From positions 1 through 52,861 of the IMG/VR virus record IMGVR_UViG_3300033513_000010: a stretch of 52,861 nt of DNA, one strand, 5' to 3'. A model generated the notes under the pieces. It had not been told where the DNA came from, did not search any database, and saw only the letters and a program-made list of their open reading frames with translations. The DNA is from a virus (taxonomy: Duplodnaviria > Caudoviricetes). Positions 5,110 through 44,967 of this stretch are shown piece after piece. The stretch's first letter is position 1. Every line of letters starts with the position of its first letter. Made by a program: the position numbers and the translations under genes.

Positions 5110-5120
5110 GGGGGAATGAT

Positions 5121-33229: not shown

Positions 33230-33262
33230 TGTTTGCCCCCTCTCCCATGACAATCTCCTTTC

Positions 33263-33362: not shown

Positions 33363-33378
33363 GAGTGCAGCCCGCGCC

Positions 33379-34476
33379 CTACTGGCCTGACAAGTGCTGT
33401 ATTGTGGCCTCTACCATGTGCTGGTAAAACTCCGGCCACCGCATCCCCTGTCCAGCCCCCAACCCCGCCAGGGCGCGGGCTTTCCAGATAATGGCGTTCA
33501 GGTCGGTATCTGGCCCAACGATTTCCAGGATGAGGGCCTTCGCATCGTCGAGGGTTGGCGGGGGGTTGGCGACGGTTGCCCGCAGGGTGACCGTACACTC
33601 GTTTTCCAGGAGTGGTGGCGTGGCTTCCTCGTCGGGATTGATTACGATTGGTGGGAGTTCTGGCAACCGGGCAACGTCCCCTGGCAGCGCCTCCGGCTCC
33701 CGGATGGCATCCTCAGCCACCGCGAGCAAGTGCGCGGATACGAACGCCGTCCATTCTGGCGACGGCGTCATCCGCAGCTGTGGCTGGCTGACGCGGATGC
33801 GCTCACCAGCCTTAGAAGTGACACTCGCTTCTGCCGGGACAAGCTCCAGCGTGAACCGAACGCCAAAGAGGCCGCGCCCGGCGGCGTTCGCCGCCTTCTC
33901 CATCAGCGTGAGCGTATCCATGATATGCTCGTAGGCGCGGATGCTGCCTGTCGAGACATCGTAATACGCCCAATCGTTCCCGACCAGGTGTGTCTCGTCG
34001 TTCGGGTCGAGGACGAAAAATGAGAGCACGGTGCAGAGGCGGCATTCCTCGCAGCGTTCATATAGGGGGTTGTCCGGGCCACCGCACGGGGCGGTATCGC
34101 CCGGCTGGAAGGGCGTCCCGTCGTCCTCAGTATAGCCCAGGACAACGCGCCCTTCCCGAATGACGCGGCTCTTGACGCTGCGGGAGAAAAACCAGTTCAC
34201 GGCCTCACCCGTCCCCTGGCAGAGCAGCGCCCCGCCGCCCGTGTAGCGCTCGTAGTATGCTCTCAGTACCTCCGGGACGGTACGCCCCGCCAGGGCGCAC
34301 GAAAGCCGGGTCGGCTCTGAGCCGTAGACGCCCGACACGATGGGGGCGTCCTTCACGACGAAATAATCCGTCTTGACCGGATGCGGCTTTTTGCCCGGAG
34401 TATCCTCCATCCGTCCAAGCCGGATACGCCCCCGGTGCTGGAGGCCGCTTCCCTGTTTCCGTCTTACGATTGGCAT
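33379..34476 (-). CDS. Gp3-like/recombination directionality factor-like protein
   Basis: GRIRLG...PVKTDYFV...YG.EPT.L, LCQGTG, C..C, DVSTGS motifs. Confidence 0.65.
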   Translation of the reverse strand: MPIVRRKQGSGLQHRGRIRLGRMEDTPGKKPHPVKTDYFVVKDAPIVSGVYGSEPTRLSCALAGRTVPEVLRAYYERYTGGGALLCQGTGEAVNWFFSRSVKSRVIREGRVVLGYTEDDGTPFQPGDTAPCGGPDNPLYERCEECRLCTVLSFFVLDPNDETHLVGNDWAYYDVSTGSIRAYEHIMDTLTLMEKAANAAGRGLFGVRFTLELVPAEASVTSKAGERIRVSQPQLRMTPSPEWTAFVSAHLLAVAEDAIREPEALPGDVARLPELPPIVINPDEEATPPLLENECTVTLRATVANPPPTLDDAKALILEIVGPDTDLNAIIWKARALAGLGAGQGMRWPEFYQHMVEATIQHLSGQ

Positions 34477-34492
34477 AAATCACACTCCCTTC

Positions 34493-34858
34493 TCACAATT
34501 CAAAGCCATCCGCCGCCTTATCGTAAAGGCGGGCGGTCACGCTTGCGGGCAATTCCTTCCGCAAACCCAATGCCTGGCGAGCCTCGTGGTCGCGCTCTGC
34601 CGCGCGGTCACGCTCCCAATCGTATTTCCCCTTCGCCACGACATCCCGCTCCGCAAGGATGGGATGGGGCACAATCCCGTGACACGTCTTAATCTCGTGG
34701 CTGATTGCGCCCGTCTCCGGGTCAACGTAAGGAGCGCCCAGGAGCGCACCGCAGGAACGGCAAACGAACTGCCGTTCGATGGCTTCCCAGGTTCGGAGTT
34801 CGTCACGGATGACGATTCCGTGCTGATAATGTTCTGGTAACTCGATGGGTGTCTGCAT
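34493..34858 (-). CDS. hypothetical Zn-ribbon protein
   Basis: CRSCG...C motif; AGGAG RBS. Confidence 0.65.
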   Translation of the reverse strand: MQTPIELPEHYQHGIVIRDELRTWEAIERQFVCRSCGALLGAPYVDPETGAISHEIKTCHGIVPHPILAERDVVAKGKYDWERDRAAERDHEARQALGLRKELPASVTARLYDKAADGFEL

Positions 34859-34928
34859 AGATTTTTTCTCCTATCTTCATTATACCCCGTTCCGCACGAA
34901 ACGCAAACCGCGCGGAACGGGGACTATC

Positions 34929-35585
34929 TCATGCCTTCTCCGAGGCTTCTGGAAGCTGAAGGGTTGTATCCTCCAGCCGCTCAATCCGCGAGATTCGCAC
35001 GAGCGTGATGCCCTGATTCGCCAGCGCCTCCAGCCGCTCCACCGGGTCGTCGTCGCGGACAACGTATTCAATAGCGGTTGGCCGGAAGACGCCGAACAGT
35101 CCCGCCCCCGGCTCGCCGGGCGCTTCCCCGAATTTGGGGGGCGGCGCGGGGATGGCCCGCCGATGGGCCAGCAGTACCCACGTCTCGCCGATGGTAAATC
35201 CCTTTGGGAGATGGTAGAGGCGGCGGCTGATACCCCGGACAAGCCCTTCCGAGATGAAAGCGTCCGGAGTGGGGTAAAACCGCTCCCCTACCCAAATGAG
35301 GAGGGAAGGGCCAAGTTTGCGGCCTTCCGCCAGGGGGCACAACCCGCCCCCGGTAACCCCACCGGGCTTTTGGCATTCCTTTCCAGCCCACAGCCGCTCC
35401 GGCTCAGCGAGCCAGCGCGGGGCGCGGGAAAAGCGCATTCCCTCTCCACAGCAGGGGCATACCCCCAACGGCAAGGGGAGCTTGCAGCATGAGGAGATGG
35501 CGTATCCGCCGACCAGGTAAAACCCGCCCGGCTTTCGCCAGCCACACCCCCGCTCCGTCTCGTAACGTGTAAAAATGGTAGGCAT
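34929..35585 (-). CDS. Cys-rich hypothetical protein
   Basis: RGCGWRKPGGFYL, CPCCG; AAGGAG RBS. Confidence 0.7.
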   Translation of the reverse strand: MPTIFTRYETERGCGWRKPGGFYLVGGYAISSCCKLPLPLGVCPCCGEGMRFSRAPRWLAEPERLWAGKECQKPGGVTGGGLCPLAEGRKLGPSLLIWVGERFYPTPDAFISEGLVRGISRRLYHLPKGFTIGETWVLLAHRRAIPAPPPKFGEAPGEPGAGLFGVFRPTAIEYVVRDDDPVERLEALANQGITLVRISRIERLEDTTLQLPEASEKA

Positions 35586-35597
35586 CGTTTTCTCCTT

Positions 35598-35861
35598 CTA
35601 TTCCTTAGTGGCGGGCTGGTCAACAACCCGCCCTCGCATTTCCCAGTGTTCGCAGGAATGGTACGTGGCGCCAATGAGTAGGAGGTGTATCGTTTCCTCC
35701 GGGGATAATTCCCCGTCAGTCTCCTGCTCCGTTGGCGCGATGGCGAGTGCTACTCCGAGCTTCGGGCAGCAGAACGCCCCCTGCAATGGGACCCAATTAA
35801 GAAAGTCGCATGTGATACAGCGCCGTACAGGTTCTCTCTGAAAATCCGGTCTACGTTTCAT
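35598..35861 (-). CDS. hypothetical Cys-rich protein
   Basis: CITC...CCP...CEHW; AAGGAG RBS. Confidence 0.6.
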   Translation of the reverse strand: MKRRPDFQREPVRRCITCDFLNWVPLQGAFCCPKLGVALAIAPTEQETDGELSPEETIHLLLIGATYHSCEHWEMRGRVVDQPATKE

Positions 35862-35877
35862 ATTTTCTCCTTTAGTA

Positions 35878-35975
35878 TTTTGGGCGATTTGGGGACGACT
35901 TCTTTGTTCCTGCGGGGGGAATTACCCTCCCCTGCTGAAAACGGCCAAAATCGCCCCCCATATCGCACCACGCCT
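35878..35975. repeat. dispersed hairpin element, copy 3 of 3
   Basis: GGGCGATTT...AAAATCGCCCCCCATATCGCACCACG (35947-35972). Confidence 0.75.
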
Positions 35976-35982
35976 GGATGGG

Positions 35983-36900
35983 CTACTCCTCCACCCCTTG
36001 ATTTGCATCTTGCAGGGTTTTCCCTGCGAAGAAATCGAATACTTCCTGAGCACGCTGCGCTGCCAACACCAGCCGCCCCGGCTCCTCTCCCAAAAACGTT
36101 GCCCAAAAGTGACGGGTATAGGCCGCCGAAGCGTCCAGCACTTCCGGCAGCCCTATCGCGCCGCACACCATCGCGGCGGTCATCTCGGCAATCAATTCCC
36201 CCAACGCATAGGCTTCCGTGCCCTTTGCGGCGTGGAACTGCTCGTCGTGATTGAGCCGGGTCGGATGCGTGGCGGCATGGGCCTGCTCGTGTGCCCAGGT
36301 GGCGTAGAAGGCGGCGCTGCTCTCGAACTGTCCGCGCTGCGGCATGTGAACCTCATCGCGCGAGGGGATGTAAGCCGCCTTGTCGCCACCGTAGACGACG
36401 GGCGCGGCCTTTCGGTAGGCTGCGATGAACTCCTCAGCCGTCACGTCCGGGTCGTGCTCGACGAGTTCCGGCGCTGGAATTTCCAGCCCGTCGCACTGGT
36501 GTTGGGCGTTAAACACCCAATAGCAGCGCCCGACAAACCGCGTCTGAACATCCACCGCGCTCTCGCCATCCTCGGAGGTCGTTTCGCGCTCGACGGTGTA
36601 TCGCTTCCAGTACAGGATGGGCGTCCCTTCCGCCCCCTTATTCACGCGCCCTCCGAGGGCCTTCGCCTGGTTAAACGTGACAAACCAGGGACACGTCCAG
36701 CCATTGAGAAACATCGCGGCGGTAGTCGCCAGGGCATTGTAGCCCCGGTAACACCCATAGCGCGGATAATTCACCAGGTTGGCTGGCGCGCCCGGCCCTG
36801 AGACGCGCCAGGGGCGCTGCCAGAGGAGGGGTTGGCTTTCGTCTTGAATGAGCGCCAGGAGGTCACTCGTGACCTTCTCGGCGGCTTTTCGGTTTAGCAT
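35983..36900 (-). CDS. ardC: ArdC-family antirestriction/ssDNA-binding protein
   Basis: WQRPW, YRGYN, TFNQAKALGGRVNKG, VFNAQ, AAYIPSRDEVHMP, HEQAHAT, YALGELIAE. Confidence 0.92.
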   Translation of the reverse strand: MLNRKAAEKVTSDLLALIQDESQPLLWQRPWRVSGPGAPANLVNYPRYGCYRGYNALATTAAMFLNGWTCPWFVTFNQAKALGGRVNKGAEGTPILYWKRYTVERETTSEDGESAVDVQTRFVGRCYWVFNAQHQCDGLEIPAPELVEHDPDVTAEEFIAAYRKAAPVVYGGDKAAYIPSRDEVHMPQRGQFESSAAFYATWAHEQAHAATHPTRLNHDEQFHAAKGTEAYALGELIAEMTAAMVCGAIGLPEVLDASAAYTRHFWATFLGEEPGRLVLAAQRAQEVFDFFAGKTLQDANQGVEE

Positions 36901-36927
36901 AGAGTTCTCCTTCGGTTTCTGCTGCTC

Positions 36928-36998
36928 GGCTGGTTTGCCGCGTCAGGCCGGGGGTGACCACCTCCCCGACGACCGGGGGCTACGCCCCGGTTTCGGCC
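36928..36998 (-). ncRNA. type II hammerhead ribozyme copy 1 (core variant CUGACGC)
   Basis: GCC-GAAA-stemIII-GUC-stemI-CUGACGC-GGC; A9 replaced by C (position 36940). Confidence 0.8.
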
Positions 36999-37000
36999 AA

Positions 37001-37465
37001 CTAAAACCATTTAGGCACATCCCCGCGCGGCCTTCCTGCGGCGTCGCAAAACCGATTATAGGCACGCTGTCGCGCCAGTCGTTTCGTCCGGCAGCGCCCC
37101 TCGTATCTTGAGACGGGTGTCCAAAATGGGATGGGCGCGGCTTTTGTGAGACGGTGAGTTTTTTCAAACCACCAATACCAGCCCTCCGCGTCGGTTTCTA
37201 TGGTATAGCGACAAGACGTTTCAAGCGTACCACGATTTTTGGAGACGGTTTGCCCCTTTGTTCGGAGGTTCGTTTTGTCTGAACACTCTACCACGCGCTC
37301 CTCGGAGAGAATTTTCCCGCGCTCCAAATAGGCCAGCAGTTTTTCCATTACCTGGCGCTGCTCGTCTGTGAGCGTATCACCCGCCTGGGCGAGAAGGGCC
37401 TTCAGTCCCTCCACCTCCAGGGCTGCTTCTTTGGCTCGTTTTACCGCCGCTTTTTTTGTAAACAT
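37001..37465 (-). CDS. hypothetical early protein (ribozyme-flanked)
   Basis: GAAGGAGA RBS supplied by repeat; MFTKKAAVK... Confidence 0.75.
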   Translation of the reverse strand: MFTKKAAVKRAKEAALEVEGLKALLAQAGDTLTDEQRQVMEKLLAYLERGKILSEERVVECSDKTNLRTKGQTVSKNRGTLETSCRYTIETDAEGWYWWFEKTHRLTKAAPIPFWTPVSRYEGRCRTKRLARQRAYNRFCDAAGRPRGDVPKWF

Positions 37466-37493
37466 CTCAAATCTCCTTCGGTTTCTTCTGCTC

Positions 37494-37565
37494 GGCTGGT
37501 TCGCCTCGTCAGGCCGGGGGTGACCACCTCCCCGACGACCGGGGGCTACGCCCCGGTTTCGGCAC
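37494..37565 (-). ncRNA. type II hammerhead ribozyme copy 2
   Basis: UGCC GAAA CCGGGG cguagc CCCCGG UC / GUCGGGG agguggucac CCCCGGC CUGACGA GGCG; predicted cleavage 37537/37536. Confidence 0.92.
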
Positions 37566-38051
37566 TTACTGGAGAAGGGCGTCTCGAATGGCGCGGGCCA
37601 ACCGAACCATCTCCAGTCGTGAGCGACGCTTCGCTGGCCGCTCGTATGAACGTGTCCCAATTCGCAAGCCGGTATACGTCGTCAGGTCGCGGAGATTTCT
37701 GGTGTCAAAACGGGTTAGGGTAGTGTCGCCGTATTCAGCCTCCTCCCGCAATACAGTAATCACTGTCACTGCGCGGGCGAGAATAACGGCGGCCTCAATG
37801 TGCCCTAGAGCACGCATATTCATGCGCATGGACGCCAGGTTGGCTACACTCAATTCAGCGTCGAGCATGTATTTACGAGTCCTTGCAATCATTGCCTCCA
37901 TCTCTCTAAGAGAGCGGGACTTTGAAAAGGCCAGGCGCTCATTAACTGCCGCCGCCGCGTCGTACACGCCGTCAAAAATCTCCAGAGCCGCCGTGATACC
38001 CATCTCACGCGCCGCCTCTTTCGTCAGTTGGACTTTCATTTTCTTTGACAT
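37566..38051 (-). CDS. hypothetical early protein (ribozyme-flanked)
   Basis: GAAGGAGA RBS; MSKKMKVQL... Confidence 0.75.
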   Translation of the reverse strand: MSKKMKVQLTKEAAREMGITAALEIFDGVYDAAAAVNERLAFSKSRSLREMEAMIARTRKYMLDAELSVANLASMRMNMRALGHIEAAVILARAVTVITVLREEAEYGDTTLTRFDTRNLRDLTTYTGLRIGTRSYERPAKRRSRLEMVRLARAIRDALLQ

Positions 38052-38079
38052 TTCGTTTCTCCTTCGGTTTCTACTGCTC

Positions 38080-38151
38080 GGCTGGTTCGCCTCGTCAGGC
38101 CGGGGGTGACCACCTCCCCGACGACCGGGGGCTATACCCCGGTTTCGGCAC
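38080..38151 (-). ncRNA. type II hammerhead ribozyme copy 3
   Basis: same core and stems; differs from copy 2 only in loop 3; predicted cleavage 38123/38122. Confidence 0.92.
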
Positions 38152-38436
38152 TTACTGCATCCAGGTGAAGGCCGCAATGCCCAGGGCGACCGCGCCCACC
38201 AGCAGCGTCACGCTCCACACGCGGGCAACGATGGCGTTCCGGCGGGCCTGGCGGGCCTGGCGGGCCATCTCGCGGGGGCTGATGGGAGCCGGGGGGGTTG
38301 GGGGGACTTCCTGAATGCTCACGGGGGTGTCACACTCAAACCAGACGATGCTGAGTTCGCCGTCCATCCAGATGGCAACCGGGCCATTCAGCGTTTCCTG
38401 CTCACTCCCGTTCAACCCGTCTGTCCAGTTTTCCAT
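38152..38436 (-). CDS. small C-terminally anchored membrane protein, copy 1
   Basis: near-identical to 42333-42626; C-terminal TM. Confidence 0.8.
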   Translation of the reverse strand: MENWTDGLNGSEQETLNGPVAIWMDGELSIVWFECDTPVSIQEVPPTPPAPISPREMARQARQARRNAIVARVWSVTLLVGAVALGIAAFTWMQ

Positions 38437-38478
38437 TTTCGTTTCTCCTTCTTCGCTTCGGTTTTATCCTACACATAT

Positions 38479-38506
38479 ATTATATCACAGTAGTGATAAA
38501 TGTCAA
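38479..38506 (-). promoter_or_regulatory. strong early promoter with embedded operator
   Basis: TTGACA-N16-TATAAT with extended TG; palindrome TATCAC-AGTA-GTGATA 38483-38498. Confidence 0.88.
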
Positions 38507-38546
38507 GGGGTTTTGGGCGATTTCTGGAAAATTGGTCGGATTCCGC

Positions 38547-39146
38547 TCATTTTAATGGCAGTCCGAGGTGTTCGGCGAGCCATTCCGCCTGCATCCTCGC
38601 CTCAGCATAGTAGGCGGCAAGGTTATGGGTGATGGGAGAAGCGGCAGAAGCAGCAACGCGGGCACGGGTGGCGGCGGTTATAACGCCAGAAATGACGGCG
38701 GGGGTTATACGGCGGGCATTGGCGCTGGCATAGTTGGCGCCAGTATGCGCCACGATGGCGCACTGGTTGGCCGTGTAGATGTCGTAGGGTGCGACGGCGC
38801 TGTCGGCATATCCCCTTGCCCGTTCCGCGCACGCCCTGGCGAACTCCCCCATTGTAGCCGGCGTCCAGGCGACGATGGCCCGCCCGACCCTGGCCTGTCG
38901 CGCAAGGGTTTGCTTTCTCTCCATTATCACCTCGCCTCCTACCTGGACGGGGTGGATGTACCTATCCAAGTGGTACGGCAGTTGCCATACTGTGACTACA
39001 TGATAGCCATTCTGGCATGACACCAGTTCCCCCTCAATGGGGGGCATCCACGCCCCCCATTCCTCGCCGTCCACCGGGAGTGTCCAGTGCATCCCCGAAT
39101 AGAGTGCAACCCCGCCCTCTCGCAGCACTTTATAAAAGCACACCAT
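38547..39146 (-). CDS. hypothetical protein, paralog of 51379-52116
   Basis: shared YKVLR.GG, W.LP..GEEWG.WM, GYHVVT.WQLPY, Ala-rich tail. Confidence 0.8.
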   Translation of the reverse strand: MVCFYKVLREGGVALYSGMHWTLPVDGEEWGAWMPPIEGELVSCQNGYHVVTVWQLPYHLDRYIHPVQVGGEVIMERKQTLARQARVGRAIVAWTPATMGEFARACAERARGYADSAVAPYDIYTANQCAIVAHTGANYASANARRITPAVISGVITAATRARVAASAASPITHNLAAYYAEARMQAEWLAEHLGLPLK

Positions 39147-39158
39147 CGCCCCCCCCTT

Positions 39159-39386
39159 TCATCGCGGGTACTTTTTACCCTGGTGGCCGCCCTGGAGCAT
39201 TTCGATGAACGCCATCACGTGCTCGTGGTCGAATAGCAGCATGTGTCCAGCCCGGTAGGGCAGTGGATGAAGCAGCCCCGTCTTTTTAATATGGTAACGT
39301 AGCGCGATAATGCTGCGCGGAACGCCCGCCTTCCGGCAGAGCGCCGCCACCTCTCGTAGCGTCATTCCTCTCATGGTATCCTCCAT
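39159..39386 (-). CDS. small HTH (excisionase/MerR-like) DNA-binding protein
   Basis: MTLREVAAL...LRYHIKKTGLL.P...LLFDHEHV. Confidence 0.65.
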   Translation of the reverse strand: MEDTMRGMTLREVAALCRKAGVPRSIIALRYHIKKTGLLHPLPYRAGHMLLFDHEHVMAFIEMLQGGHQGKKYPR

Positions 39387-39413
39387 TCGGGGCGGCTCAG
39401 GGCCGCCCCATGA

Positions 39414-40154
39414 CTATTCCGTAACTGGCATTTGTGCGAGTTCGTGCTGAGCCTTCTGGATGTCCGCGTCTGTGATGAACACGTCCACCCGCTCAAGCGG
39501 GTCGGCGGGGACATTTATGACGCCGCGCCGGAGGTAAACCGCCTCGCAGCGATTCCACTGGTTGATAGCCCACAGCCCGCCTTCCTCGTCAAGCTGGAAT
39601 GGAACGTTCTCGACCTGGAAAATTTCGCCAATGGTTACAGCCATTTTCCGAGGGGCTATCGTCGGCAGGGCAATATCCTCCTGGCGTCCATCCCAATGGT
39701 AGCGGAGAAGTTCGCACGAGAATGCCGACTTGTAGCGCGCCACAACCCACAGGCCGCCTACCCGGAGAAACAACCTATCGCCGGGACGGGCAAGTCCCAG
39801 ATAGGCCGCGTAGCGGGCTGCCCGTACCCACGTGTCCGCGCGGAATTTGAATACTCGCAGAGGCTGCCCGGCCCTTTCAAGGCGAACGGTGTAGGGCGAC
39901 TTCCAACACCGCCCGGACACCCCCCGGCGCATGTAGCGGCGCAACTCAATTTCTCGAACGCGCCATTCCGCCAACCCCCGCAGTTCTTCCGCTTCTCGAC
40001 TCAGCAGCAATTCGCGGAGGGCAAGCGTTACTGCATTACAAGCCTGCCAATGGTACAGGCGGGCGCGGTGGGTTGCCTCGTCCTGAGCCGCCTCGTAACT
40101 CTCAAGCAGCGTATTCGCTGCTTCACTCGTAAGGTACTGCGCTTTCGATAGCAT
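39414..40154 (-). CDS. hypothetical protein
   Basis: AAAGGAG RBS; 246 aa. Confidence 0.7.
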   Translation of the reverse strand: MLSKAQYLTSEAANTLLESYEAAQDEATHRARLYHWQACNAVTLALRELLLSREAEELRGLAEWRVREIELRRYMRRGVSGRCWKSPYTVRLERAGQPLRVFKFRADTWVRAARYAAYLGLARPGDRLFLRVGGLWVVARYKSAFSCELLRYHWDGRQEDIALPTIAPRKMAVTIGEIFQVENVPFQLDEEGGLWAINQWNRCEAVYLRRGVINVPADPLERVDVFITDADIQKAQHELAQMPVTE

Positions 40155-40166
40155 GATTAACTCCTT

Positions 40167-42233
40167 TCACTTTTCATTGATTGGCATGATGGCCGCCCAA
40201 CTGTCGCCAACCGTCAGGACAATCGGGCCGCGCCTTTCGGGTGGGAAGGCCATTCGGAACGACTTGATGACCCTCAGATTCTTCGGGGGCATCTTCAGCG
40301 CCGCGTCCATTGCCCGCAGGATTGCGGCGAAGGCGGCGGCCTCGACCAGCCACTCCGACGATTCGGGGGCATTACCAGAGGGCAGCAACACCATTACGGC
40401 GCGGGGCGTGGCGTCGGCGCTTTCCCCCTGAACAAAGAGCGTCGTGTCTTTGATGAACAGCCGCACAAATGACGAGTCGCCACCCGTCGTTTTGATTGCC
40501 GCGGCCAACCGCGCGGGGCTGCCAATTTCGTGGAGGATGCCCTTGCCAGAGGCGGTGGCATCCAGCTTGGCGAAAAGGTTCTCGCTTGGTTTCCGGAGGT
40601 TGGAAAACAGTGTGATGACAAATCCATTAGGGCGGCCTTCCTTGATTTGCACGAGGCCGCTCCGGTGTAGGTTATCCTGAACGTCCACGAGGACGGCGGG
40701 GACAGTCGCCGCCAGAACGTCGGTGATAGGTGTGATCAATTCGCGCGGGATTCTGGCATAGGCTGGTCCCTCGACTGGCGGAACAGGGATAGCCATCACA
40801 ACCGCGCGGCGTCCTGTAGTTCCCGCCACCCGCATCCGGCTGTCTCGGATTTCCAGATGGACTTCCCGGTAGACATCAAGGCCAGAAGTCGGGTCGGTAT
40901 TGTACTTCGCCTGCTTGAGCGCCTTAGAAAAGGCGGAAGCCGACACCCCTGTCTGTACCCAAACCTCATCGCCTTCCGGCTGCGGGAGCGCCGGGAACTC
41001 CGCTCCACTCCAGTAGGGAAGTTCCAGGGTAGACGCCCCGTCGGCTGTAAAAACGACCGATACCCATCGCCGATTGCGGTGGCGGCGGGTCACGCCGACC
41101 GTGATGGTGCGACAGTTCTGTGGCAGGGCCGCTACCCAGGCCGCGAGCTTCGCGCCTGGGACGACAATATCAAAGCCGGGAACGGCCATGTCCAAGCCAG
41201 GAAGCGGTTTCTTCGCTGCCTCGAAGAGTACCACCTGGAGGGCGGCTTTGAGTGAGCAAGCCTCCGCAAAAACCCGGCGACCGCGTACCACGAGGTGAAT
41301 CCCGCTCAAGACCGGAACTGGCCTTTCGTCGGCGCAAAACGTCGCCAGATTGGCGATGGCCTTACGGAACGCCGACCCGCAGGGGATTGTCAGGGCTGGC
41401 GGTGGGGCGGGTACGTCCAGCCCGGCAGTTCTCTCGCTGTCGCTGTACATGGGCTGAATGAGGGCAAACCGCTCCCCGCCCTGGGATGTGATGAGAAGCG
41501 GGCTTATCGCATTGCGAAGATAGAAGATACACCCCCCACTGCTCTCAAGCGCCCGGATGAACTGCAACCCGCGAAGTAAATAGTCGGCATTGATAAGCAT
41601 GGCCCAATCCGTCTTTTCAATCGGCGACTTCCCGAAGCAGCGTTCCCTCAGCGCCGGGCTGGTATTTGGGATGGAAGCGATCCATTCCATCCCGCAGGTC
41701 GTTTCGCTTCCGAGCCGTTCGCGGCGGCAGAAGTAGAGGTCGTTGTCCGCAATGATTATCCAGACATGCGGCACTGCGGGGATGGCGGCAATCAGCCGCT
41801 CCAGCGCCCCGATAGCCCGGTCGAGGGCCGTCGTGAGGAGCGGGAAGGGGAACTCGTGGTTTTTCCCGCACCGCTCCAATTCCTTCCAGAAGTCGGGCGC
41901 TTCCGGGCTTTCGCCGTTGCCTGGAATAGCCCCGGTGTGAATTGGGAAGAAGTCGGGGGGTTTTGGTGAAGGAAATCCGGCGCTTTCTGCCGGGGAGAGA
42001 AACGTTCCTATCACCTGAAATCCATCCGTTGCGAGTAGGCAATCCGCCAGCAGCCCCATACCAAATGCAGGGCCGATTTTCCCCCGCCCCCACCACAAGA
42101 GCTTCGACGCGAGGGGGCGGGTATCCCCAGAGGGGCTTTCAGTCGCGGCGGCCAACAGTTTGATGTCCTTCTCGCTGAGGCCAGCGAGAAGCAACTGCTG
42201 CACGGTCGGCTCGTAGAGTTTTGAATTTGCCAT
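40167..42233 (-). CDS. divergent, elongated DNA polymerase III beta-clamp-like protein
   Basis: LATDGF, INADYL, FALIQPM, ERPVPVLSGIHL, FPALP, RVAGTTGRR, AAIMPI recall DnaN motifs. Confidence 0.6.
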   Translation of the reverse strand: MANSKLYEPTVQQLLLAGLSEKDIKLLAAATESPSGDTRPLASKLLWWGRGKIGPAFGMGLLADCLLATDGFQVIGTFLSPAESAGFPSPKPPDFFPIHTGAIPGNGESPEAPDFWKELERCGKNHEFPFPLLTTALDRAIGALERLIAAIPAVPHVWIIIADNDLYFCRRERLGSETTCGMEWIASIPNTSPALRERCFGKSPIEKTDWAMLINADYLLRGLQFIRALESSGGCIFYLRNAISPLLITSQGGERFALIQPMYSDSERTAGLDVPAPPPALTIPCGSAFRKAIANLATFCADERPVPVLSGIHLVVRGRRVFAEACSLKAALQVVLFEAAKKPLPGLDMAVPGFDIVVPGAKLAAWVAALPQNCRTITVGVTRRHRNRRWVSVVFTADGASTLELPYWSGAEFPALPQPEGDEVWVQTGVSASAFSKALKQAKYNTDPTSGLDVYREVHLEIRDSRMRVAGTTGRRAVVMAIPVPPVEGPAYARIPRELITPITDVLAATVPAVLVDVQDNLHRSGLVQIKEGRPNGFVITLFSNLRKPSENLFAKLDATASGKGILHEIGSPARLAAAIKTTGGDSSFVRLFIKDTTLFVQGESADATPRAVMVLLPSGNAPESSEWLVEAAAFAAILRAMDAALKMPPKNLRVIKSFRMAFPPERRGPIVLTVGDSWAAIMPINEK

Positions 42234-42260
42234 GTAAATCTCCTTCGGTTTCTTCTGCTC

Positions 42261-42331
42261 GGCTGGTTCGCCTCGTCAGGCCGGGGGTGACCACCTCCCC
42301 GACGACCGGGGGCTACACCCCGGTTTCGGCA
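42261..42331 (-). ncRNA. type II hammerhead ribozyme copy 4
   Basis: same core and stems; predicted cleavage 42304/42303. Confidence 0.92.
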
Positions 42332-42332
42332 G

Positions 42333-42626
42333 TTACTGCATCCACTGCATCCAGTTGAAGGCCGCGATTGCCAGGGCGACCGCGCCCACCAGCAGCGTCA
42401 CGCTCCACGCGCGGGCAACGATGGCGTTCCGGCGGGCCTGGCGGGCCTGGCGGGCCATCTCGCGGGGGCTGATGGGAGCCGGGGGGGTTGGGGGGACTTC
42501 CTGAATGCTCACGGGGGTGTCACACTCGAACCAGACGATGCTGAGTTCGCCGTCCATCCAGATGGCAACCGGGCCATTCAGCGTTTCCTGCTCACTGCCG
42601 TTCAACCCGTCTGTCCAGTTTTCCAT
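42333..42626 (-). CDS. small membrane protein, copy 2
   Basis: duplicate of 38152-38436, three residues longer (WMQWMQ end). Confidence 0.8.
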   Translation of the reverse strand: MENWTDGLNGSEQETLNGPVAIWMDGELSIVWFECDTPVSIQEVPPTPPAPISPREMARQARQARRNAIVARAWSVTLLVGAVALAIAAFNWMQWMQ

Positions 42627-42668
42627 TTTCGTTTCTCCTTTTTCGCTTCGGTTTTATCCTACACATAT

Positions 42669-42696
42669 ATTATATCACAGTAGTGATAAATGTCAA
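42669..42696 (-). promoter_or_regulatory. strong early promoter with embedded operator
   Basis: TTGACA-N16-TATAAT; TATCACAGTAGTGATA 42673-42688. Confidence 0.88.
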
Positions 42697-42736
42697 GAGG
42701 CAAAAGGCGATTTCTGGAAAATTGGTCAGGGGATAT

Positions 42737-43069
42737 TTACTTCTCCTCACCCTCAATGACTTTCAATTCAGCCACAACCTGTCGCCAATCATGGCAGTGA
42801 ATACCGCGTTGCCAGGACTTGCTTATCACAAGTTTGGCTGATGACGGCCACCACTCACCAGTGATGGCCCCCTTTTGAAACACCCAATGGTGACCGTTAT
42901 TGAATACATCAAGTTGCCAACCGTTCTTGTCACACCACGTTCGCGTATCGGCTAGGTTCACCATCGCCTCTTTGAGCCTGCGGGCATGACGCGCCGCCGG
43001 GGCCTCGGCGCTGGCGTAGGTTGAAAGGGTTGCCCTATTTCGCGCCTTTCGACTATCACTGTATTTCAT
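42737..43069 (-). CDS. hypothetical protein
   Basis: AGGAGG RBS; NNGHHW...WWPSSAKL...HCHD. Confidence 0.7.
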   Translation of the reverse strand: MKYSDSRKARNRATLSTYASAEAPAARHARRLKEAMVNLADTRTWCDKNGWQLDVFNNGHHWVFQKGAITGEWWPSSAKLVISKSWQRGIHCHDWRQVVAELKVIEGEEK

Positions 43070-43129
43070 CACACCGCCCTCCTATCAGGTCGGCGGGGGC
43101 GGGTGCTCGGCCCGCCCCCTACCATTCAA

Positions 43130-43546
43130 TTAGGCCGCCTCGTCGGACTTCCCGACGCCAATGCTCAGCAGGGCCGGATTGAGTACCGCGCCCGGCTTCT
43201 CGTTTGCGGCTTCGCCCTCGTTGTGAATCTGAGTGGCGAGATTATGCCAGCGCCGGAGTTGTTCACCGAAAATCCAGCAATCGGCCAGAACCTGCACCGC
43301 CGCCCCGTACATGAATCCCGTTATCCCCTCAGTGTTGGCCTCGTAGGAGGTCGCTTTGGCGATTTCGGCAAAACGGTCGTCCGAGAAGACGCGCCCTTCG
43401 AGCACGCCGTCCCATTCGGATTCGAGCTTGGCTTCCATCAGATTCGCCCATGCCTCCGCGTATCTGATAATGACCGCCCCATAATCCTTCTTATTGTTGT
43501 CCTGCCATTTCTGCCAGGACGCATCTTTTCCCGTTGCGATTCTCAT
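43130..43546 (-). CDS. hypothetical phage protein
   Basis: YAEAWANLME, GITGFMYGAAVQVL, GEQLRRWHN, VLNPALL. Confidence 0.75.
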   Translation of the reverse strand: MRIATGKDASWQKWQDNNKKDYGAVIIRYAEAWANLMEAKLESEWDGVLEGRVFSDDRFAEIAKATSYEANTEGITGFMYGAAVQVLADCWIFGEQLRRWHNLATQIHNEGEAANEKPGAVLNPALLSIGVGKSDEAA

Positions 43547-43639
43547 TGCAGTCCCTTTCCTTGCCACTTGGCAATTTGGGGGTGAACACACCCGTGTCCA
43601 CCGTTTTGATTACGAGGCCCATCCTCGTCCTACAACTAT

Positions 43640-43667
43640 ATTATATCACACCAGTGATAAATGTCAA
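43640..43667 (-). promoter_or_regulatory. strong early promoter with embedded operator
   Basis: TTGACA-N16-TATAAT; TATCACACCAGTGATA 43644-43659. Confidence 0.85.
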
Positions 43668-43717
43668 GAGATTTTGGGCGATTCTCAGAAACCTGGTCGG
43701 ATTTATCCACGACTTGC

Positions 43718-43746
43718 TTGCCATAAATGCTGAGGTGTGATATATT
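43718..43746 (+). promoter_or_regulatory. divergent rightward promoter
   Basis: TTGCCA-N17-TATATT with extended TG; contains GTGATA operator half-site. Confidence 0.65.
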
Positions 43747-43784
43747 GAGGGTGTCGCCCACCGACGGCGGCGTCAAACGTTTGG

Positions 43785-43813
43785 AGGGCGCGATTTCCGC
43801 GCCCTTCTTTTTT
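43785..43813 (+). terminator. intrinsic terminator about 40 nt after the rightward promoter
   Basis: AGGGCGCG-ATTTC-CGCGCCCT followed by TCTTTTTT. Confidence 0.75.
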
Positions 43814-43832
43814 AGGTGTTCCGTGCGGAACG

Positions 43833-43996
43833 GGCGGTGGCTGCTCGCCTGGCGGCATGGTCGGCGCGGCGCTCCGGTGACGGCGAGAAATCCTGGAGCG
43901 GCCAATACAATCCAGTCGCGGCTACTTCAGCGCCGATGAAGTTGGCGCAGGGGGGGGCTTGATAGCCCGGCTCTTTGCGGGAAAGCCGCCACCGCC
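43833..43996 (+). ncRNA. candidate structured RNA (~165 nt)
   Basis: closing stem GGCGGTGGC/GCCACCGCC enclosing several hairpins; no convincing ORF. Confidence 0.4.
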
Positions 43997-44011
43997 TATA
44001 GATAGTGGAGG

Positions 44012-44048
44012 TGTACACCTTGTATACACTGTATACAGGGCGTATACA
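44012..44048. repeat. second parC-like repeat cluster
   Basis: TGTACA, TGTATACA x2, CGTATACA at about 10 bp spacing. Confidence 0.65.
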
Positions 44049-44076
44049 CGCTGAGGGGTATCATAAGGTGTTGTTT

Positions 44077-44151
44077 GCGGGGGGCGCACGAGGGGCGCGG
44101 AGAGGCGCATAGAAAAATGGCCTACGCCCGGTTCAATTCCTGGCCCCCGCA
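44077..44151 (+). ncRNA. tRNA-like/degenerate tRNA
   Basis: acceptor GCGGGGG/CCCCCGC-A, T-arm CCCGG-TTCAATT-CCTGG, irregular D and anticodon arms. Confidence 0.45.
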
Positions 44152-44190
44152 CTATTTTTTAATGGCCCCACAAGGGCGTGGAGAGGTGTA

Positions 44191-44967
44191 ATGACTAATC
44201 TACCTAACGAACTCCCGGACGGGGCGCTGGAAATCCCCGACGGCCCTCGGCTGATTTGGATTTTAGTGCGTGACGTGGTTCAACTCCTCTGGAAGCAAAA
44301 CCCCAAAAAACACGACATCGGCCTGCTCGCGCAGTCCATCGTTGAGAACGGCTTCCGCGACCCGGCGGCTTATGATTCCAGACTGGAGGCGATTATCTAC
44401 GGGAACGGGCGGGTGGCGGCGGTTTGGTGGCTGGAGCAGCAAGCCAAGCCGGGTGACGCCCCGCCGCGTGGGGTTGGCCGCCAGCGCGAAACGGGCTATT
44501 GGGCCATCCCGCTCCTGGTCGGGGTGGATTCGGAGTCGGAATCGCTGGCGAAGCGGTTTGCGCTCGACCACAACAATCTTACATTGTCGGGAGGAGATTT
44601 CCAGCCCTGGGAATTTGAAAAATTGTGGGATGAGCAAGCCTTCGCGGCACTCCTGGAGGAGTTAGCGGAAAGCGGTGATGGGACGCTGGCGCTGGATAGT
44701 GATGATATCGAGGAAATGCGGAAGTTCCACGAATTTCTCCAGCCAGAGTTCAGTGGAATTGTCGAGGAATTTGAAGGGGCGCAGAGAGGAGGGGCGGAAG
44801 GGAATGAACAATGGTTTTACGTCGAGTTCTATAAGGATGAGGAATTGTTCAAAGGGCTGACCGCGCTGCTTCGGCCCTATCTAACTGGAGCGCACGAATT
44901 AGACGGCGCATTCTTCGAACGCGCTATTCGACAAGCGGTAGAGAATGCTGAAGAAACTTCTGATTAA
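44191..44967 (+). CDS. ParB/Srx-like N-terminal domain protein
   Basis: NPKKHD...LAQSIVENGFRDP...IIYGNGRV...ALDHNNL. Confidence 0.8.
   Translation: MTNLPNELPDGALEIPDGPRLIWILVRDVVQLLWKQNPKKHDIGLLAQSIVENGFRDPAAYDSRLEAIIYGNGRVAAVWWLEQQAKPGDAPPRGVGRQRETGYWAIPLLVGVDSESESLAKRFALDHNNLTLSGGDFQPWEFEKLWDEQAFAALLEELAESGDGTLALDSDDIEEMRKFHEFLQPEFSGIVEEFEGAQRGGAEGNEQWFYVEFYKDEELFKGLTALLRPYLTGAHELDGAFFERAIRQAVENAEETSD

What the first reader, a model, noticed from the sequence alone, without database searches (positions are those of the whole stretch)
36928..42331. Four type II hammerhead ribozymes punctuate the early operons as stop-ribozyme-RBS units
Seen: a ~95 bp intergenic repeat at 36907-36998, 37473-37565, 38059-38151 and 42240-42331. 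On the - (sense) strand it reads GCC GAAA CCGGGG nnuagc CCCCGG UC | GUCGGGG agguggucac CCCCGGC CUGACGA GGC gaaccagcc, followed by GAAGGAGA and an ATG. Known: this is the hammerhead core (GAAA, GUC cleavage triplet, CUGANGA) with stems III and I closed and stem II open, i.e. type II. Loop 1 GGUGGU can pair with the 3' tail ACCA(G)CC, the type II pseudoknot. Copies 2-4 differ only in loop 3 and flanks. Inference: each copy starts within a few nt of a stop codon and cuts about 70 nt before the next ATG. The early transcript would thus self-process into units with an identical 5'-OH hairpin leader and RBS, a natural ribozyme-insulator cassette system for swappable early genes (ardC, clamp-like, two unknowns). 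Hammerheads in phages are known; this standardised array use is the notable part.
Basis: partly seen in the sequence, partly recalled or inferred. Interest (0 to 1): 0.92.

Follow-up and report, generated by a model that had tools for sequence, protein, structure and literature searches.

The report
Hammerhead ribozymes between phage early genes
Four copies of a small self-cutting RNA (type II hammerhead ribozyme) sit between the early genes of an uncultured phage and probably chop its long early transcripts into single-gene messages; this kind of arrangement was already described in prophages in 2011, so it is a clean new example rather than a new principle.

Summary
Rfam's Hammerhead_II model scores all four minus-strand repeats above its gathering cut-off (40.9-42.0 bits against 37). 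Each copy lies 1-2 nt after a stop codon and would cut 70-71 nt before the next ATG.

Three perfect sigma-70 promoters drive this strand. The region also encodes Tad4-like and ArdC-like anti-defence proteins.

Three copies (HH2-4) have the full catalytic core. The copy before ardC (HH1) has C instead of A at core position 9. It is the only one of 50 related hammerheads with that change, so it is probably impaired.

Relatives in other contigs support all three stems by covariation. They also show the same stop-ribozyme-RBS packing: 31 of 37 start within -1 to +3 nt of an upstream stop. Two other contigs carry 10-11 hammerheads each.

Clustered type II hammerheads flanking single prophage genes, including anti-restriction ardA, were published and shown to cleave in 2011 (PMC3088659). 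What is unusual here is the 97-99% identity of the units and a duplicated promoter-small ORF-hammerhead module. Cleavage was not tested. Verdict: new member of a known kind.

The parts
42262..42331 (-). HH4: type II hammerhead with canonical core. Predicted cleavage between 42304 and 42303. Lies between the small ORF lead2 and the 688-aa clamp-like gene.
   Evidence: Rfam RF02276 41.9 bits against cut-off 37; own model R1 86.3 bits; strict descriptor hit.
38081..38150 (-). HH3: type II hammerhead with canonical core. Predicted cleavage between 38123 and 38122. Lies between the small ORF lead1 and gA.
   Evidence: Rfam 41.6 bits; R1 85.9 bits; strict descriptor hit.
37495..37564 (-). HH2: type II hammerhead with canonical core. 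Predicted cleavage between 37537 and 37536. Lies between gA and gB.
   Evidence: Rfam 42.0 bits; R1 85.5 bits; strict descriptor hit.
36929..36998 (-). HH1: hammerhead-II copy with core variant A9->C (CUGACGC). The equivalent cleavage site is 36971/36970. Lies between gB and ardC and is probably slow or inactive.
   Evidence: Rfam 40.9 bits. Missed by the strict core descriptor. Position 9 is A in 49 of 50 related hammerheads and C only here. In a constrained fold C9 pairs with G12.
36901..36928 (-). Shared leader after HH1: spacer, GAAGGAGA Shine-Dalgarno and 5-nt gap before the ardC ATG. The equivalent leaders lie at 37466-37494, 38052-38080 and 42234-42261.
   Evidence: Alignment A1: 22 nt after the hammerhead tail are identical in all four copies except one column. 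The SD is predicted mostly unpaired, mean 0.71-0.83 in 7 of 8 folds.
38479..38506 (-). Promoter P1 (TTGACA, 16 nt with TG, TATAAT). Drives lead1-HH3-gA-HH2-gB-HH1-ardC.
   Evidence: 12 of 12 consensus match with extended -10. Part of the 76-nt repeat family D3.
42669..42696 (-). Promoter P2, the same sequence as P1. Drives lead2-HH4-g688 and three further ORFs.
   Evidence: 12 of 12 match; D3 repeat; alignment A2.
43640..43667 (-). Promoter P3, of the same family. Drives the Tad4-like gene and a 111-aa ORF, with no hammerhead.
   Evidence: 12 of 12 match; D3 repeat, 84% identical to the reference copy.
38152..38436 (-). lead1: 94-aa ORF with a hydrophobic C-terminus, first gene after P1, ending 1 nt before HH3.
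   Evidence: ORF list; 300-nt repeat D2, 96% identical to the lead2 region; no Pfam or PHROG family.
42333..42626 (-). lead2: 97-aa duplicate of lead1, first gene after P2, ending 1 nt before HH4.
37566..38051 (-). gA: 161-aa ORF of unknown function, flanked by HH3 and HH2.
   Evidence: ORF with SD and ATG; no family in Pfam or PHROGs; no usable ESM Atlas feature hit.
37001..37465 (-). gB: 154-aa ORF of unknown function, flanked by HH2 and HH1.
   Evidence: Not detectably related to gA (BLASTP E 0.083).
35983..36900 (-). ArdC-like anti-restriction protein (305 aa), downstream of HH1.
   Evidence: Pfam ArdcN 8.3e-22 and MPTase-PolyVal 4.5e-27, both above cut-off. PHROG 7245 'anti-restriction protein' 2.9e-50.
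40167..42233 (-). 688-aa protein with a sliding-clamp-like region, downstream of HH4.
   Evidence: PHROG 947 'DNA polymerase processivity factor' 2e-10, residues 287-511. Pfam DNA_pol3_beta 19.9 bits, below its cut-off of 24.4.
43130..43546 (-). Tad4-like Thoeris inhibitor, first gene of the P3 unit. Context for the region, not flanked by a hammerhead.
   Evidence: Pfam PF25186 Tad4 7.3e-29, 100.8 bits against cut-off 25. tblastn homologues in 32 phage records.

Best explanation
The four repeats are type II hammerhead self-cleaving ribozymes built into the early, host-RNA-polymerase-transcribed operons of a tailed phage.

Two transcripts are proposed. One runs from P2: lead2-HH4-g688 and onward. 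The other runs from P1: lead1-HH3-gA-HH2-gB-HH1-ardC. Each would fold into a hammerhead directly after a stop codon and cut itself after the GUC triplet.

Stems III and I are the closed ones, so each cut leaves two protected ends:
- The upstream mRNA keeps a 29-30-nt 3' tail that ends in the 7-bp stem III hairpin with a 2',3'-cyclic phosphate.
- The downstream mRNA starts with a 5'-OH directly on the 7-bp stem I hairpin, followed by an identical, unstructured 70-71-nt leader with a GAAGGAGA ribosome-binding site.

The 3-4-bp stem II that joined the two halves then falls apart. The expected result is separate single-gene messages, uncoupled from their neighbours in decay and given a uniform 5' end.

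HH2-4 are expected to be active. HH1 carries A9->C and probably cuts slowly or not at all, which would leave gB and ardC on one mRNA.

Shown here: family membership, position, orientation, promoters, and structure supported by covariation in relatives. Inferred: transcription, cleavage, and the effect on stability and expression.
For: 1. All four copies pass Rfam's curated cut-off for Hammerhead_II, and nothing else in the window matches any family at E<=1. None of 14 control genomes matches.

2. HH2-4 have the core CUGANGA, GAAA, A15.1-U16.1 and GUC, plus a G10.1-C11.1 pair.

3. Covariation in relatives. An own covariance model found 50 matches in 54 sources (425,878 bases). On their alignment, 96.2% of 741 pair cells are standard pairs, against 62.4% in shuffles and 34.7-43.7% with partners slid. 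Fifteen of 17 pairs change on both sides, and 0 of 500 shuffles reach the covariation score. This alignment was fitted to the model, which favours the structure.

4. Pseudoknot. UGGU in loop I pairs with ACCA in the tail. In other arrays the two sides change together, for example UUGAC/GUCAA, UGGUC/GACCA, UAGG/CCUA and UUGACCU/AGGUCAA.

5. Variation pattern inside the window. Among HH2-4 only 3 of 92 unit columns vary, and 2 of those lie in the 6-nt loop III. That is the pattern expected if the rest of the unit is under constraint.

6. Expression context. Three 12/12 sigma-70 promoters with TG lie on the same strand, and terminator-like sites are not enriched (13 found, 12.6 expected). All hammerheads are in sense with their flanking genes.

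7. The end structures of the products follow from the folds. The SD is predicted open.

8. Precedent. Clustered type II hammerheads flanking single prophage genes, including ardA, cleaved in vitro and in E. coli (PMC3088659). Three type II hammerheads near phage-like genes cleave in vivo in Desulfovibrio vulgaris (PMC8782182). The synthetic RiboJ ribozyme with hairpin raises transcript and protein levels in E. coli (PMC6206723).

9. The same stop-hammerhead-RBS packing recurs in unrelated contigs. Of 37 non-duplicate hammerheads, 31 start -1 to +3 nt from the stop of an upstream ORF of at least 40 aa, and 35 have an SD-preceded start 14-58 nt after them.
Against: - No cleavage or RNA data exist for this phage.
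- The minimum-free-energy fold is not the hammerhead fold. It uses an alternative register in which C17-GUCGGG pairs with CCUGACG. That register is 1.7-2.7 kcal/mol more stable than the best hammerhead-compatible fold when the pseudoknot is ignored.
- Folding energies are no better than shuffled sequence (z = -0.77 and -0.72), as expected for GC-rich RNA.
- The four copies are nearly identical, so the window itself offers no covariation.
- The window's 4-bp pseudoknot is no longer than shuffled tails give for this G-rich loop (4 against about 4.2).
- HH1 has a non-consensus core.
- Predicted SD accessibility is about the same before and after cleavage in 3 of 4 units, so cleavage is not needed to expose the RBS.
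- Many of the 37 hammerheads in the stop-distance count are homologous. Eight come from one contig family, so the independent count is nearer 23 of 29.
- Tight packing may only reflect genome compaction.
Confidence: 0.75

Rival explanations
1. The units are chiefly DNA-level boundaries of exchangeable gene cassettes. On this view the near-identical 95-119-nt repeats act as homologous-recombination sites through which early or anti-defence genes are gained, lost or shuffled. The ribozyme is carried along or serves a secondary role.
For: - Units in this window are 97-99% identical, while the genes between them are unrelated (gA against gB E 0.083).
- In other arrays the units are only 58-85% identical, so the uniformity here calls for recent duplication or gene conversion.
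- A 400-nt promoter-lead ORF-hammerhead module is duplicated at 96% identity.
- Perreault 2011 notes that the genes flanked by hammerheads 'are not constant'.
Against: - Sequence variation among copies is concentrated in loop III while the stems, core, tail and leader are kept. This points to RNA-level constraint.
- Related arrays keep the hammerhead structure through compensatory changes even though their DNA identity is low, so the RNA fold is what is conserved.
- No relative of this phage was found in which a cassette swap could be seen.
- This rival is compatible with, rather than exclusive of, the best explanation.
Confidence: 0.1
2. The hammerheads are gated switches rather than constitutive cutters. 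Two gates are conceivable. A ribosome terminating 1-2 nt upstream would melt stem II and the GAAA core. Alternatively the competing register seen in the MFE fold would hold the RNA uncut until some condition is met. Cleavage would then depend on translation of the upstream ORF or on the cell's state.
For: - Stop codons abut the hammerhead in 31 of 37 cases across contigs and in 4 of 4 here.
- An alternative fold is 1.7-2.7 kcal/mol below the hammerhead-compatible fold in all four copies.
- Perreault 2011 raises regulated cleavage for phage hammerheads as a possibility.
Against: - The downstream gap is also near its minimum: pseudoknot tail, SD and spacer together take 14-58 nt. Compaction therefore explains the adjacency without any gating.
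- The alternative register depends on N7 = C and on stem I starting with GUC. I did not find it on reading the other hammerheads' sequences, and made no formal count.
- The energy gap ignores the pseudoknot.
Confidence: 0.08
3. The RNAs excised between two hammerheads (gA, 586 nt; gB, 566 nt) are circularised. Each would carry a 5'-OH and a 2',3'-cyclic phosphate, and its two ends together rebuild a complete hammerhead, because neighbouring units are identical and stem II is the only helix shared between halves. The ends could then be joined by the ribozyme's reverse reaction or by a host RtcB-type ligase, giving exonuclease-proof circular mRNAs.
For: - The end chemistry follows from hammerhead cleavage.
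- Units are 97-99% identical.
- Stem II is GCC:GGC in nearly all of 50 related hammerheads: 47, 43 and 48 of 50 on the 5' side and 50, 46 and 48 of 50 on the 3' side.
- Tandem hammerheads produce circles in viroids and retrozymes (established knowledge; PMC7761336 seen as a listing only).
Against: - Perreault 2011 looked for spliced or circular products from such arrays and found none (data not shown in the paper).
- A 3-4-bp stem II is a weak clamp over more than 500 nt.
- HH1, the 3' boundary of gB, is probably impaired.
- No RNA ligase family appeared among the 30 window ORFs scanned against Pfam.
Confidence: 0.04
4. The copies are inactive relics or are not transcribed, and the repeat persists without function.
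For: There are no expression data. One copy already has a core substitution. The MFE fold is not the active fold.
Against: - Three copies have perfect cores.
- Consensus promoters lie upstream on the same strand.
- Every copy sits precisely between a stop codon and an RBS.
- Variation avoids the structured parts.
Confidence: 0.03

Closest known systems
Clustered hammerheads flanking single genes in prophages (Perreault et al. 2011, PLoS Comput Biol, PMC3088659), e.g. the triple array around ardA in Agrobacterium tumefaciens
   Same: Several hammerheads in one orientation flank individual genes or short gene blocks of phage origin, and the gene identities vary. An anti-restriction gene lies directly downstream of a hammerhead. 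The type II consensus reported there carries a loop I-3' tail pseudoknot, as here. The proposed role is processing of long phage transcripts into single-gene mRNAs. Those arrays cleaved in vitro and, for A. tumefaciens, in E. coli (passages read).
   Different: Here the units are nearly identical to each other (97-99%) and include a shared 22-nt spacer and RBS. A promoter-small ORF-hammerhead module is duplicated. The anti-restriction gene is ardC, not ardA, and its hammerhead has an A9C core change. The element lies in a free phage contig from a wetland metagenome. The main text of that paper has no occurrence of 'stop codon'; its supplementary figures and dataset could not be opened.
Type II hammerheads of Desulfovibrio vulgaris (cyPhyRNA-seq, PMC8782182)
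   Same: Type II hammerheads lie near hypothetical and phage-like genes, two of them about 300 nt apart. In vivo cleavage was shown by capture of 2',3'-cP and 5'-OH ends (passages read).
   Different: Those are chromosomal prophage-like loci with three copies. That work makes no claim about stop-codon adjacency or shared leaders.
RiboJ and related synthetic ribozyme insulators (PMC6206723)
   Same: It works alike. A self-cleaving hammerhead removes upstream RNA and leaves a hairpin-containing, identical 5' end ahead of the RBS. In E. coli this raised transcript abundance about 2-fold and protein 2- to 10-fold (passages read).
   Different: RiboJ is an engineered part: an sTRSV-derived ribozyme plus an added 23-nt hairpin, placed between promoter and RBS. 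Here the element is natural, of type II topology, placed between cistrons, and the 5' hairpin is the ribozyme's own stem I. This is a resemblance in function only, not family membership.
HHphage variant in haloviruses HF1/HF2 (Perreault et al. 2011)
   Same: A hammerhead lies just upstream (13 nt) of the first gene of an early polycistronic transcript, and the mapped 5' end is within 3 nt of the cleavage site (passage read).
   Different: That is a single copy in an archaeal virus, with a high-salt variant core and no array.
Tandem hammerheads of viroids, satellite RNAs and retrozymes
   Same: Repeated identical hammerheads cut a longer transcript into unit-length pieces with 5'-OH and 2',3'-cP ends.
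   Different: Those process replicating or retrotransposing RNAs that are then circularised. Here the pieces are phage mRNAs, and there is no evidence of circles. This comparison rests on general knowledge; PMC7761336 was seen only as a search listing.

Membership tests
Hammerhead ribozyme, type II (Rfam RF02276) | Score at or above the family's curated gathering threshold | tested here: met
   4 of 4 copies score 40.9-42.0 bits against 37. The same four are found by the genome search.
Hammerhead ribozyme, type II (Rfam RF02276) | Conserved catalytic core: C3 U4 G5 A6 N7 G8 A9, G12 A13 A14, the A15.1-U16.1 pair, and H17 (not G) at the cleavage site | tested here: met
   Met in 3 of 4 copies (HH2, HH3, HH4: CUGACGA, GAAA, A-U, GUC). 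Not met in HH1, where position 9 is C. Among 50 related matches position 9 is A in 49. A9 is on the list of positions that Perreault 2011 required (Methods passage).
Hammerhead ribozyme, type II (Rfam RF02276) | Three helices around the core, with stems I and III closed by loops and stem II open (the type II permutation) | tested here: met
   Stem III is 7 bp with a 6-nt loop, stem I is 7 bp with a 10-nt loop, and stem II is 3-4 bp formed by the 5' and 3' ends. In 50 relatives 96.2% of pair cells are paired and 15 of 17 pairs show compensatory change (the alignment was fitted to the model).
Hammerhead ribozyme, type II (Rfam RF02276) | Standard base pair at 10.1-11.1 next to the core | tested here: met
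   G10.1-C11.1 in all four copies. The corresponding columns are G in 50 of 50 and C in 48 of 50 relatives.
Hammerhead ribozyme, type II (Rfam RF02276) | Tertiary contact: pseudoknot of 4 or more bp between loop I and the tail just 3' of stem II (in a majority of type II representatives, Perreault 2011) | tested here: met
   UGGU/ACCA, 4 bp, in all four copies, plus two G-C pairs if one G bulges. A pseudoknot of 4 bp or more is found in 36 of 37 related hammerheads, with covarying pairs in the L006 and L042 arrays. For the window alone, 4 bp is no longer than shuffled tails give, so support comes from the family and not from these copies.
Hammerhead ribozyme, type II (Rfam RF02276) | Mg2+-dependent self-cleavage 3' of H17, giving 2',3'-cyclic phosphate and 5'-OH ends | not testable with these tools
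Clustered prophage/phage hammerhead arrangement (Perreault et al. 2011) | Several hammerheads close together, in the same orientation as the genes, flanking single genes or short gene blocks in phage DNA | tested here: met
   Three hammerheads lie within 1.2 kb flanking gA and gB, and a fourth lies 4.2 kb upstream. All are in sense with the genes. The record is a tailed phage with portal, HK97-type capsid and DnaB.
Ribozyme-based insulator (RiboJ-like) - considered as a working analogue only | Cleavage leaves an identical hairpin-led 5' UTR before the RBS, whatever lies upstream | tested here: met
   By sequence: the 3' products of HH2-4 are identical for the first 49-50 nt and differ at one spacer position. 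A 5'-terminal 7-bp hairpin is predicted. Any effect on expression was not tested. This is a natural element, not a member of an engineered part family.

The most novel reading that the evidence does not exclude
Type II hammerhead units mark, and help to build, a modular early 'accessory gene' region. Each unit would be both an RNA-processing site and a portable junction of fixed layout: stop codon, ribozyme, standard leader and RBS. Unrelated small genes, many of them counter-defence genes, would be slotted between such junctions by recombination.

If so, arrays of hammerheads would be a sequence-independent signpost for finding new phage anti-defence genes. Two other contigs carry 10-11 hammerheads per 4-8 kb. 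The rule that the ribozyme starts at the upstream stop codon would be a general design feature of bacterial type II hammerheads that has not been stated in print. I found no statement of it in the main text of PMC3088659 or in searches, but supplements were closed.
Probability: 0.2. Interest if true: 0.65.

Novelty: new member of a known kind. Interest (0 to 1): 0.4.

Why it matters
What bacterial and phage hammerheads are for is still open. A 2019 review says that processing of polycistronic transcripts has been 'suggested' and that more work is needed (PMC6765202).

This phage offers a compact test bed:
- consensus promoters that E. coli RNA polymerase should read;
- three identical canonical ribozymes and one natural core variant in the same unit;
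- a standard leader and RBS;
- recognisable counter-defence genes (Tad4-like, ArdC-like) beside unknown ones.

Two comparative results could guide a wider survey. First, hammerheads start at the upstream stop codon in most cases. Second, arrays of 10-11 occur among small ORFan genes. Such a survey might give a handle on unknown early phage genes.

As it stands, the finding adds an example and some detail to a phenomenon published in 2011. A specialist would not be surprised by it.

Tried and rejected
**Close relatives of the phage, to see whether genes between units vary. None were found.**
- An exact 33-mer of the unit in viral contigs gave 0.
- An exact 25-mer gave 0 in metagenome contigs and 0 in genome contigs.
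- Protein-pattern scans of viral contigs with the 688-aa protein, lead1 and ArdC gave no confirmed relative.
- blastn of 35900-43800 against 50,697 phage records gave no match.
- The cassette-swap idea therefore stays untested.

**RNA evidence.**
- The look-up of sequencing runs listed 4 DNA runs of one study and no RNA holder.
- Laying their contigs on 33000-46000 only showed assembly contigs ending inside the repeats, with no joints or variants that bear on cassettes.

**Degenerate pattern scans (GGTGGT-N10-CTGANGAGGCNNACCA).**
- They returned 5 viral, 41 metagenome and 11 genome loci.
- 36 of the 58 sources, window included, gave no strict hammerhead.
- On inspection most of those are coding-sequence look-alikes, including all 11 named genomes. 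L054 scored a weak 27 bits with my model but lacks stem III. No host could be inferred.

**Host and taxonomy.** The ORF at 5085-6629 is only about 34% identical, over 36% of its length, to maturation proteases of actinobacterial phages. This is not informative.

**Function of gA and gB.** Pfam, PHROGs and the ESM Atlas gave nothing usable.

**Ideas considered and set aside.**
- Intrinsic terminators: the hairpins have no U-run, and terminator-like sites are not enriched.
- RBS unmasking by cleavage: the SD is predicted open in both states in 3 of 4 units.
- Tandem duplication of gene-plus-ribozyme units: gA and gB are not detectably homologous.

- A search for activity data on A9 mutants found nothing relevant. 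The statement that A9C should impair catalysis rests on A9's conservation, on the Methods of Perreault 2011, and on my recollection of classic mutagenesis.
- Supplementary files of papers were closed. Figures S1-S3 and Dataset S1 of PMC3088659 may already show stop-codon adjacency or larger arrays.

Full report
**What is there.** The window is a complete IMG/VR virus record of 52,861 bp, classed as linear and 71% complete. It is a tailed phage: portal, HK97-type capsid, DnaB helicase and DUF5131 are present.

On the minus strand, between about 43,700 and 35,980, lies a block of genes headed by three copies of one promoter. Each copy is TTGACA, a 16-nt spacer with TG, then TATAAT, a 12 of 12 match. 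They sit at 43667-43640, 42696-42669 and 38506-38479 and belong to a 76-nt repeat family.

The gene order is as follows:
- P3: Tad4-like gene (Pfam PF25186, 7.3e-29), then a 111-aa ORF.
- P2: lead2 (97 aa), HH4, a 688-aa clamp-like protein, then ORFs of 246, 75 and 199 aa.
- P1: lead1 (94 aa), HH3, gA (161 aa), HH2, gB (154 aa), HH1, then ArdC-like (ArdcN plus MPTase-PolyVal).

Replication genes follow on the same strand.

The repeat finder reports four copies of a 119-nt unit at the stated places. Rfam's Hammerhead_II model matches all four above its gathering score: 40.9-42.0 bits against 37. It is the only family that matches anywhere in the window, even at E<=1.

The alignment of the units shows this order:
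- stop codon;
- 1-2 nt;
- the 70-nt ribozyme;
- a 22-nt spacer identical but for one column;
- GAAGGAGA;
- 5-7 nt;
- ATG.

Predicted cuts fall at 42304/42303, 38123/38122, 37537/37536 and, for HH1, 36971/36970. They leave 29-30 nt after the upstream stop and 70-71 nt before the downstream ATG.

**Anatomy.** The ribozyme reads: stem II 5' strand (GCC, plus a U-G pair in HH2-4), then GAAA, then stem III (7 bp, 6-nt loop) ending in U16.1, then C17. The cleavage site follows. After it come stem I (7 bp, 10-nt loop AGGUGGUCAC), then CUGACGA, then the stem II 3' strand (GGC), then a tail GAACCAGCC. UGGU of loop I can pair with ACCA of the tail.

Stems III and I are the closed ones. The upstream product therefore ends in hairpin III and the downstream product begins with hairpin I. 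Only the 3-4-bp stem II holds the two products together.

**One copy is different.** HH1, before ardC, reads CUGACGC, so A9 is replaced by C. In a constrained fold this C pairs with G12. In an alignment of 50 related hammerheads, position 9 is A in 49 and C only in HH1. C3, G5, A6 and G8 are invariant in the same alignment.

A9 is one of the positions that Perreault et al. required for a canonical hit (Methods passage). I expect HH1 to be slow or dead. That expectation rests on conservation and on recalled mutagenesis, not on a test. If it is right, gB and ardC stay on one mRNA.

**Evidence from relatives.** No close relative of the phage exists in the collections searched. A degenerate pattern for the loop I-core-tail region brought in 57 loci.

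A covariance model built from 11 sequences found 50 matches in 54 sources. On their alignment:
- 96.2% of 741 pair cells are standard pairs, against 62.4% in column shuffles and 35-44% with partners slid;
- 15 of 17 pairs show changes on both sides.

The alignment is fitted to the model, which favours the structure, but the margin is large.

Two contigs carry dense arrays. L006 has 11 hammerheads in 7.8 kb: 10 by Rfam at E<=1, plus one more found by my model. L042 has 10 in 3.8 kb. In both, all hammerheads share one strand and separate small genes. In these arrays the loop I and tail sequences change together, which supports the pseudoknot for the family.

**A regularity.** I examined 37 non-duplicate hammerheads from the strict set. 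Of these, 31 start -1 to +3 nt from the stop codon of an upstream ORF of at least 40 aa. Three start 17, 50 or 56 nt away, and three have no such ORF. Thirty-five have an SD-preceded start codon 14-58 nt downstream.

Eight of the 37 come from one family of homologous contigs, and two more are copies of one site. The independent count is therefore about 23 of 29.

The downstream distance is also close to the minimum needed for tail plus SD plus spacer. The simplest reading is maximal packing of the ribozyme between cistrons. A role for the terminating ribosome is possible but not shown.

The main text of Perreault 2011 does not mention stop codons. I could not open its supplements.

**What is special to this window.** The units here are 97-99% identical to each other, against 58-85% in the other arrays. 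Among HH2-4 only 3 of 92 unit columns vary, and two of those are in loop III. So the copies are recent, or homogenised, and the structured parts and the leader are being kept.

The promoter, the small membrane-anchored ORF and the hammerhead form a module of about 400 nt that is present twice at 96% identity. gA and gB are not detectably related, and neither has a known family.

**Caveats on folding.** ViennaRNA's minimum-energy fold uses a shifted register that pairs C17-GUCGGG with CCUGACG. It is 1.7-2.7 kcal/mol below the best hammerhead-compatible fold. The calculation ignores the pseudoknot and the tertiary core. Stem I can also form before the competing 3' strand is transcribed. I therefore treat this as a caveat and a possible brake, not as a refutation.

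Energies are not better than shuffles (z about -0.7). The RBS is predicted open before and after cleavage in three of four units, so cleavage is not needed to expose it.

**How it most likely works.** Host RNA polymerase reads P2 and P1 early in infection. The nascent RNA folds into hammerheads directly after lead2, lead1 and gA and cuts itself.

Each message is then bounded by a 5'-OH on a terminal hairpin and by a 3' hairpin with a cyclic phosphate. From established knowledge of bacterial mRNA decay, recalled and not checked here, such ends are poor entry points for 5'-end-dependent RNase E and for 3' exonucleases. The synthetic counterpart, RiboJ, raises transcript abundance about 2-fold and protein 2- to 10-fold in E. 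coli (PMC6206723).

The outcome would be independent, uniformly led messages for genes of differing origin. All steps after 'the sequence is a hammerhead in a transcribed position' are inferred.

**Comparison with what is known.** Perreault et al. 2011 (PMC3088659; passages and section 8 read) reported several things that bear on this finding:
- the first natural type II hammerheads and their pseudoknot;
- the proposal that these arrangements process long transcripts into single-gene mRNAs;
- cleavage by three such arrays in vitro, and by one in E. coli;
- that ardA follows a hammerhead in Agrobacterium and Legionella.

Type II hammerheads near phage-like genes cleave in vivo in D. vulgaris (PMC8782182). 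A 2019 review still calls the function unresolved (PMC6765202).

My searches found no paper in the held library that links hammerhead arrays to anti-defence regions or to stop codons. The library is incomplete, and this is not proof of absence.

**Gene content near hammerheads elsewhere.**
- L042: 0 of 9 array ORFs reach a Pfam cut-off.
- L006: 1 of 10 does, an AAA ATPase.
- Other loci: 6 of 10 flanking ORFs do. The families are amidoligase, GATase, DUF2786/DUF7168, DUF6011, a DUF2201 metallopeptidase-VWA protein and an AAA_5 ATPase.

These are typical accessory genes of mobile elements, but none is a proven counter-defence gene. The link to anti-defence therefore rests on ArdC and Tad4 here and on ardA in the literature.

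**Verdict.** This is a real, well-formed set of type II hammerheads: three canonical copies and one core variant. They lie in the early operons of an uncultured phage and are very probably self-processing sites. It is a new member of a known kind.

The uniform units, the duplicated promoter-ORF-ribozyme module, the natural A9C variant and the cross-contig stop-codon rule are useful details and make a good experimental system. The central idea is fifteen years old.

Noticed in passing
window 38467-38542, 42657-42732, 43628-43703 (minus strand): The three consensus promoters share about 30 conserved nt upstream of the -35 box (GACCA..TTTC..GAAATCGCC), beyond what a promoter needs. This may be a UP element or an operator for a phage or host regulator.
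   Followed up: partly
window 38152-38436 and 42333-42626 (minus strand): There are two copies of a 94/97-aa ORF with a hydrophobic C-terminal segment. Each is the first gene behind a consensus promoter, and neither has a known family. Copy 2 carries a 9-nt tandem duplication (an extra Trp-Met-Gln) directly before its stop codon and the hammerhead.
   Followed up: partly
window 43130-43546 (minus strand): A Tad4-like protein (type I Thoeris inhibitor family, Pfam PF25186, 100.8 bits) is the first gene of the early region. Homologues at about 40-45% identity occur in 32 phage records, 29 of them Bacillus phages.
   Followed up: partly
window 43085-43125 (minus strand): A GC-rich inverted repeat (GGGGGCGGGCC...GCCCGCCCCC) lies between the Tad4-like gene and the next ORF, with no U-run after it. 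Its role is unknown.
   Followed up: no
window 44945-47255 (plus strand): An overlapping pair of an asparagine-synthase-like PP-loop protein (Pfam Asn_synthase 6.8e-12) and a radical SAM protein (2.8e-7) lies on the arm that diverges from the early region. This may be a nucleotide- or DNA-modification module.
   Followed up: no
L006 712-8527 (+) and L042 42-3816 (-): Two other contigs carry 11 and 10 type II hammerheads on one strand, one after almost every small ORF. In L042 the genes share a standard RBS (AUAGGAGCAC...). These arrays are denser than the tandem (triple) arrangements named in the main-text passages of the 2011 paper that I read.
   Followed up: partly
L022 861-938 (-) and L046 557-634 (+): These hammerheads read GAUAA in place of GAAA, an extra U in the core. 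This matches the U13a insertion that Perreault 2011 describes as tolerated.
   Followed up: no
alignment A5, column 96 (e.g. L006 3796-3879, L009 4871-4947): Three of 50 related hammerheads have C instead of U at core position 4 (CCGAUGA). The variant recurs and was not assessed for activity.
   Followed up: no
window 36929-37000, 37495-37566, 38081-38152, 42262-42333 (minus strand): In all four copies the predicted minimum-energy fold pairs C17-GUCGGG with CCUGACG instead of forming stem I in the hammerhead register. This is made possible by N7 = C and by stem I starting with GUC. It could slow or gate cleavage.
   Followed up: partly
window 33379-34476 (minus strand): A 365-aa protein matches Pfam Gp3-like 'recombination directionality factor-like' (4.1e-17). 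It lies downstream of the early block, next to DUF5131 and T5orf172 proteins.
   Followed up: no
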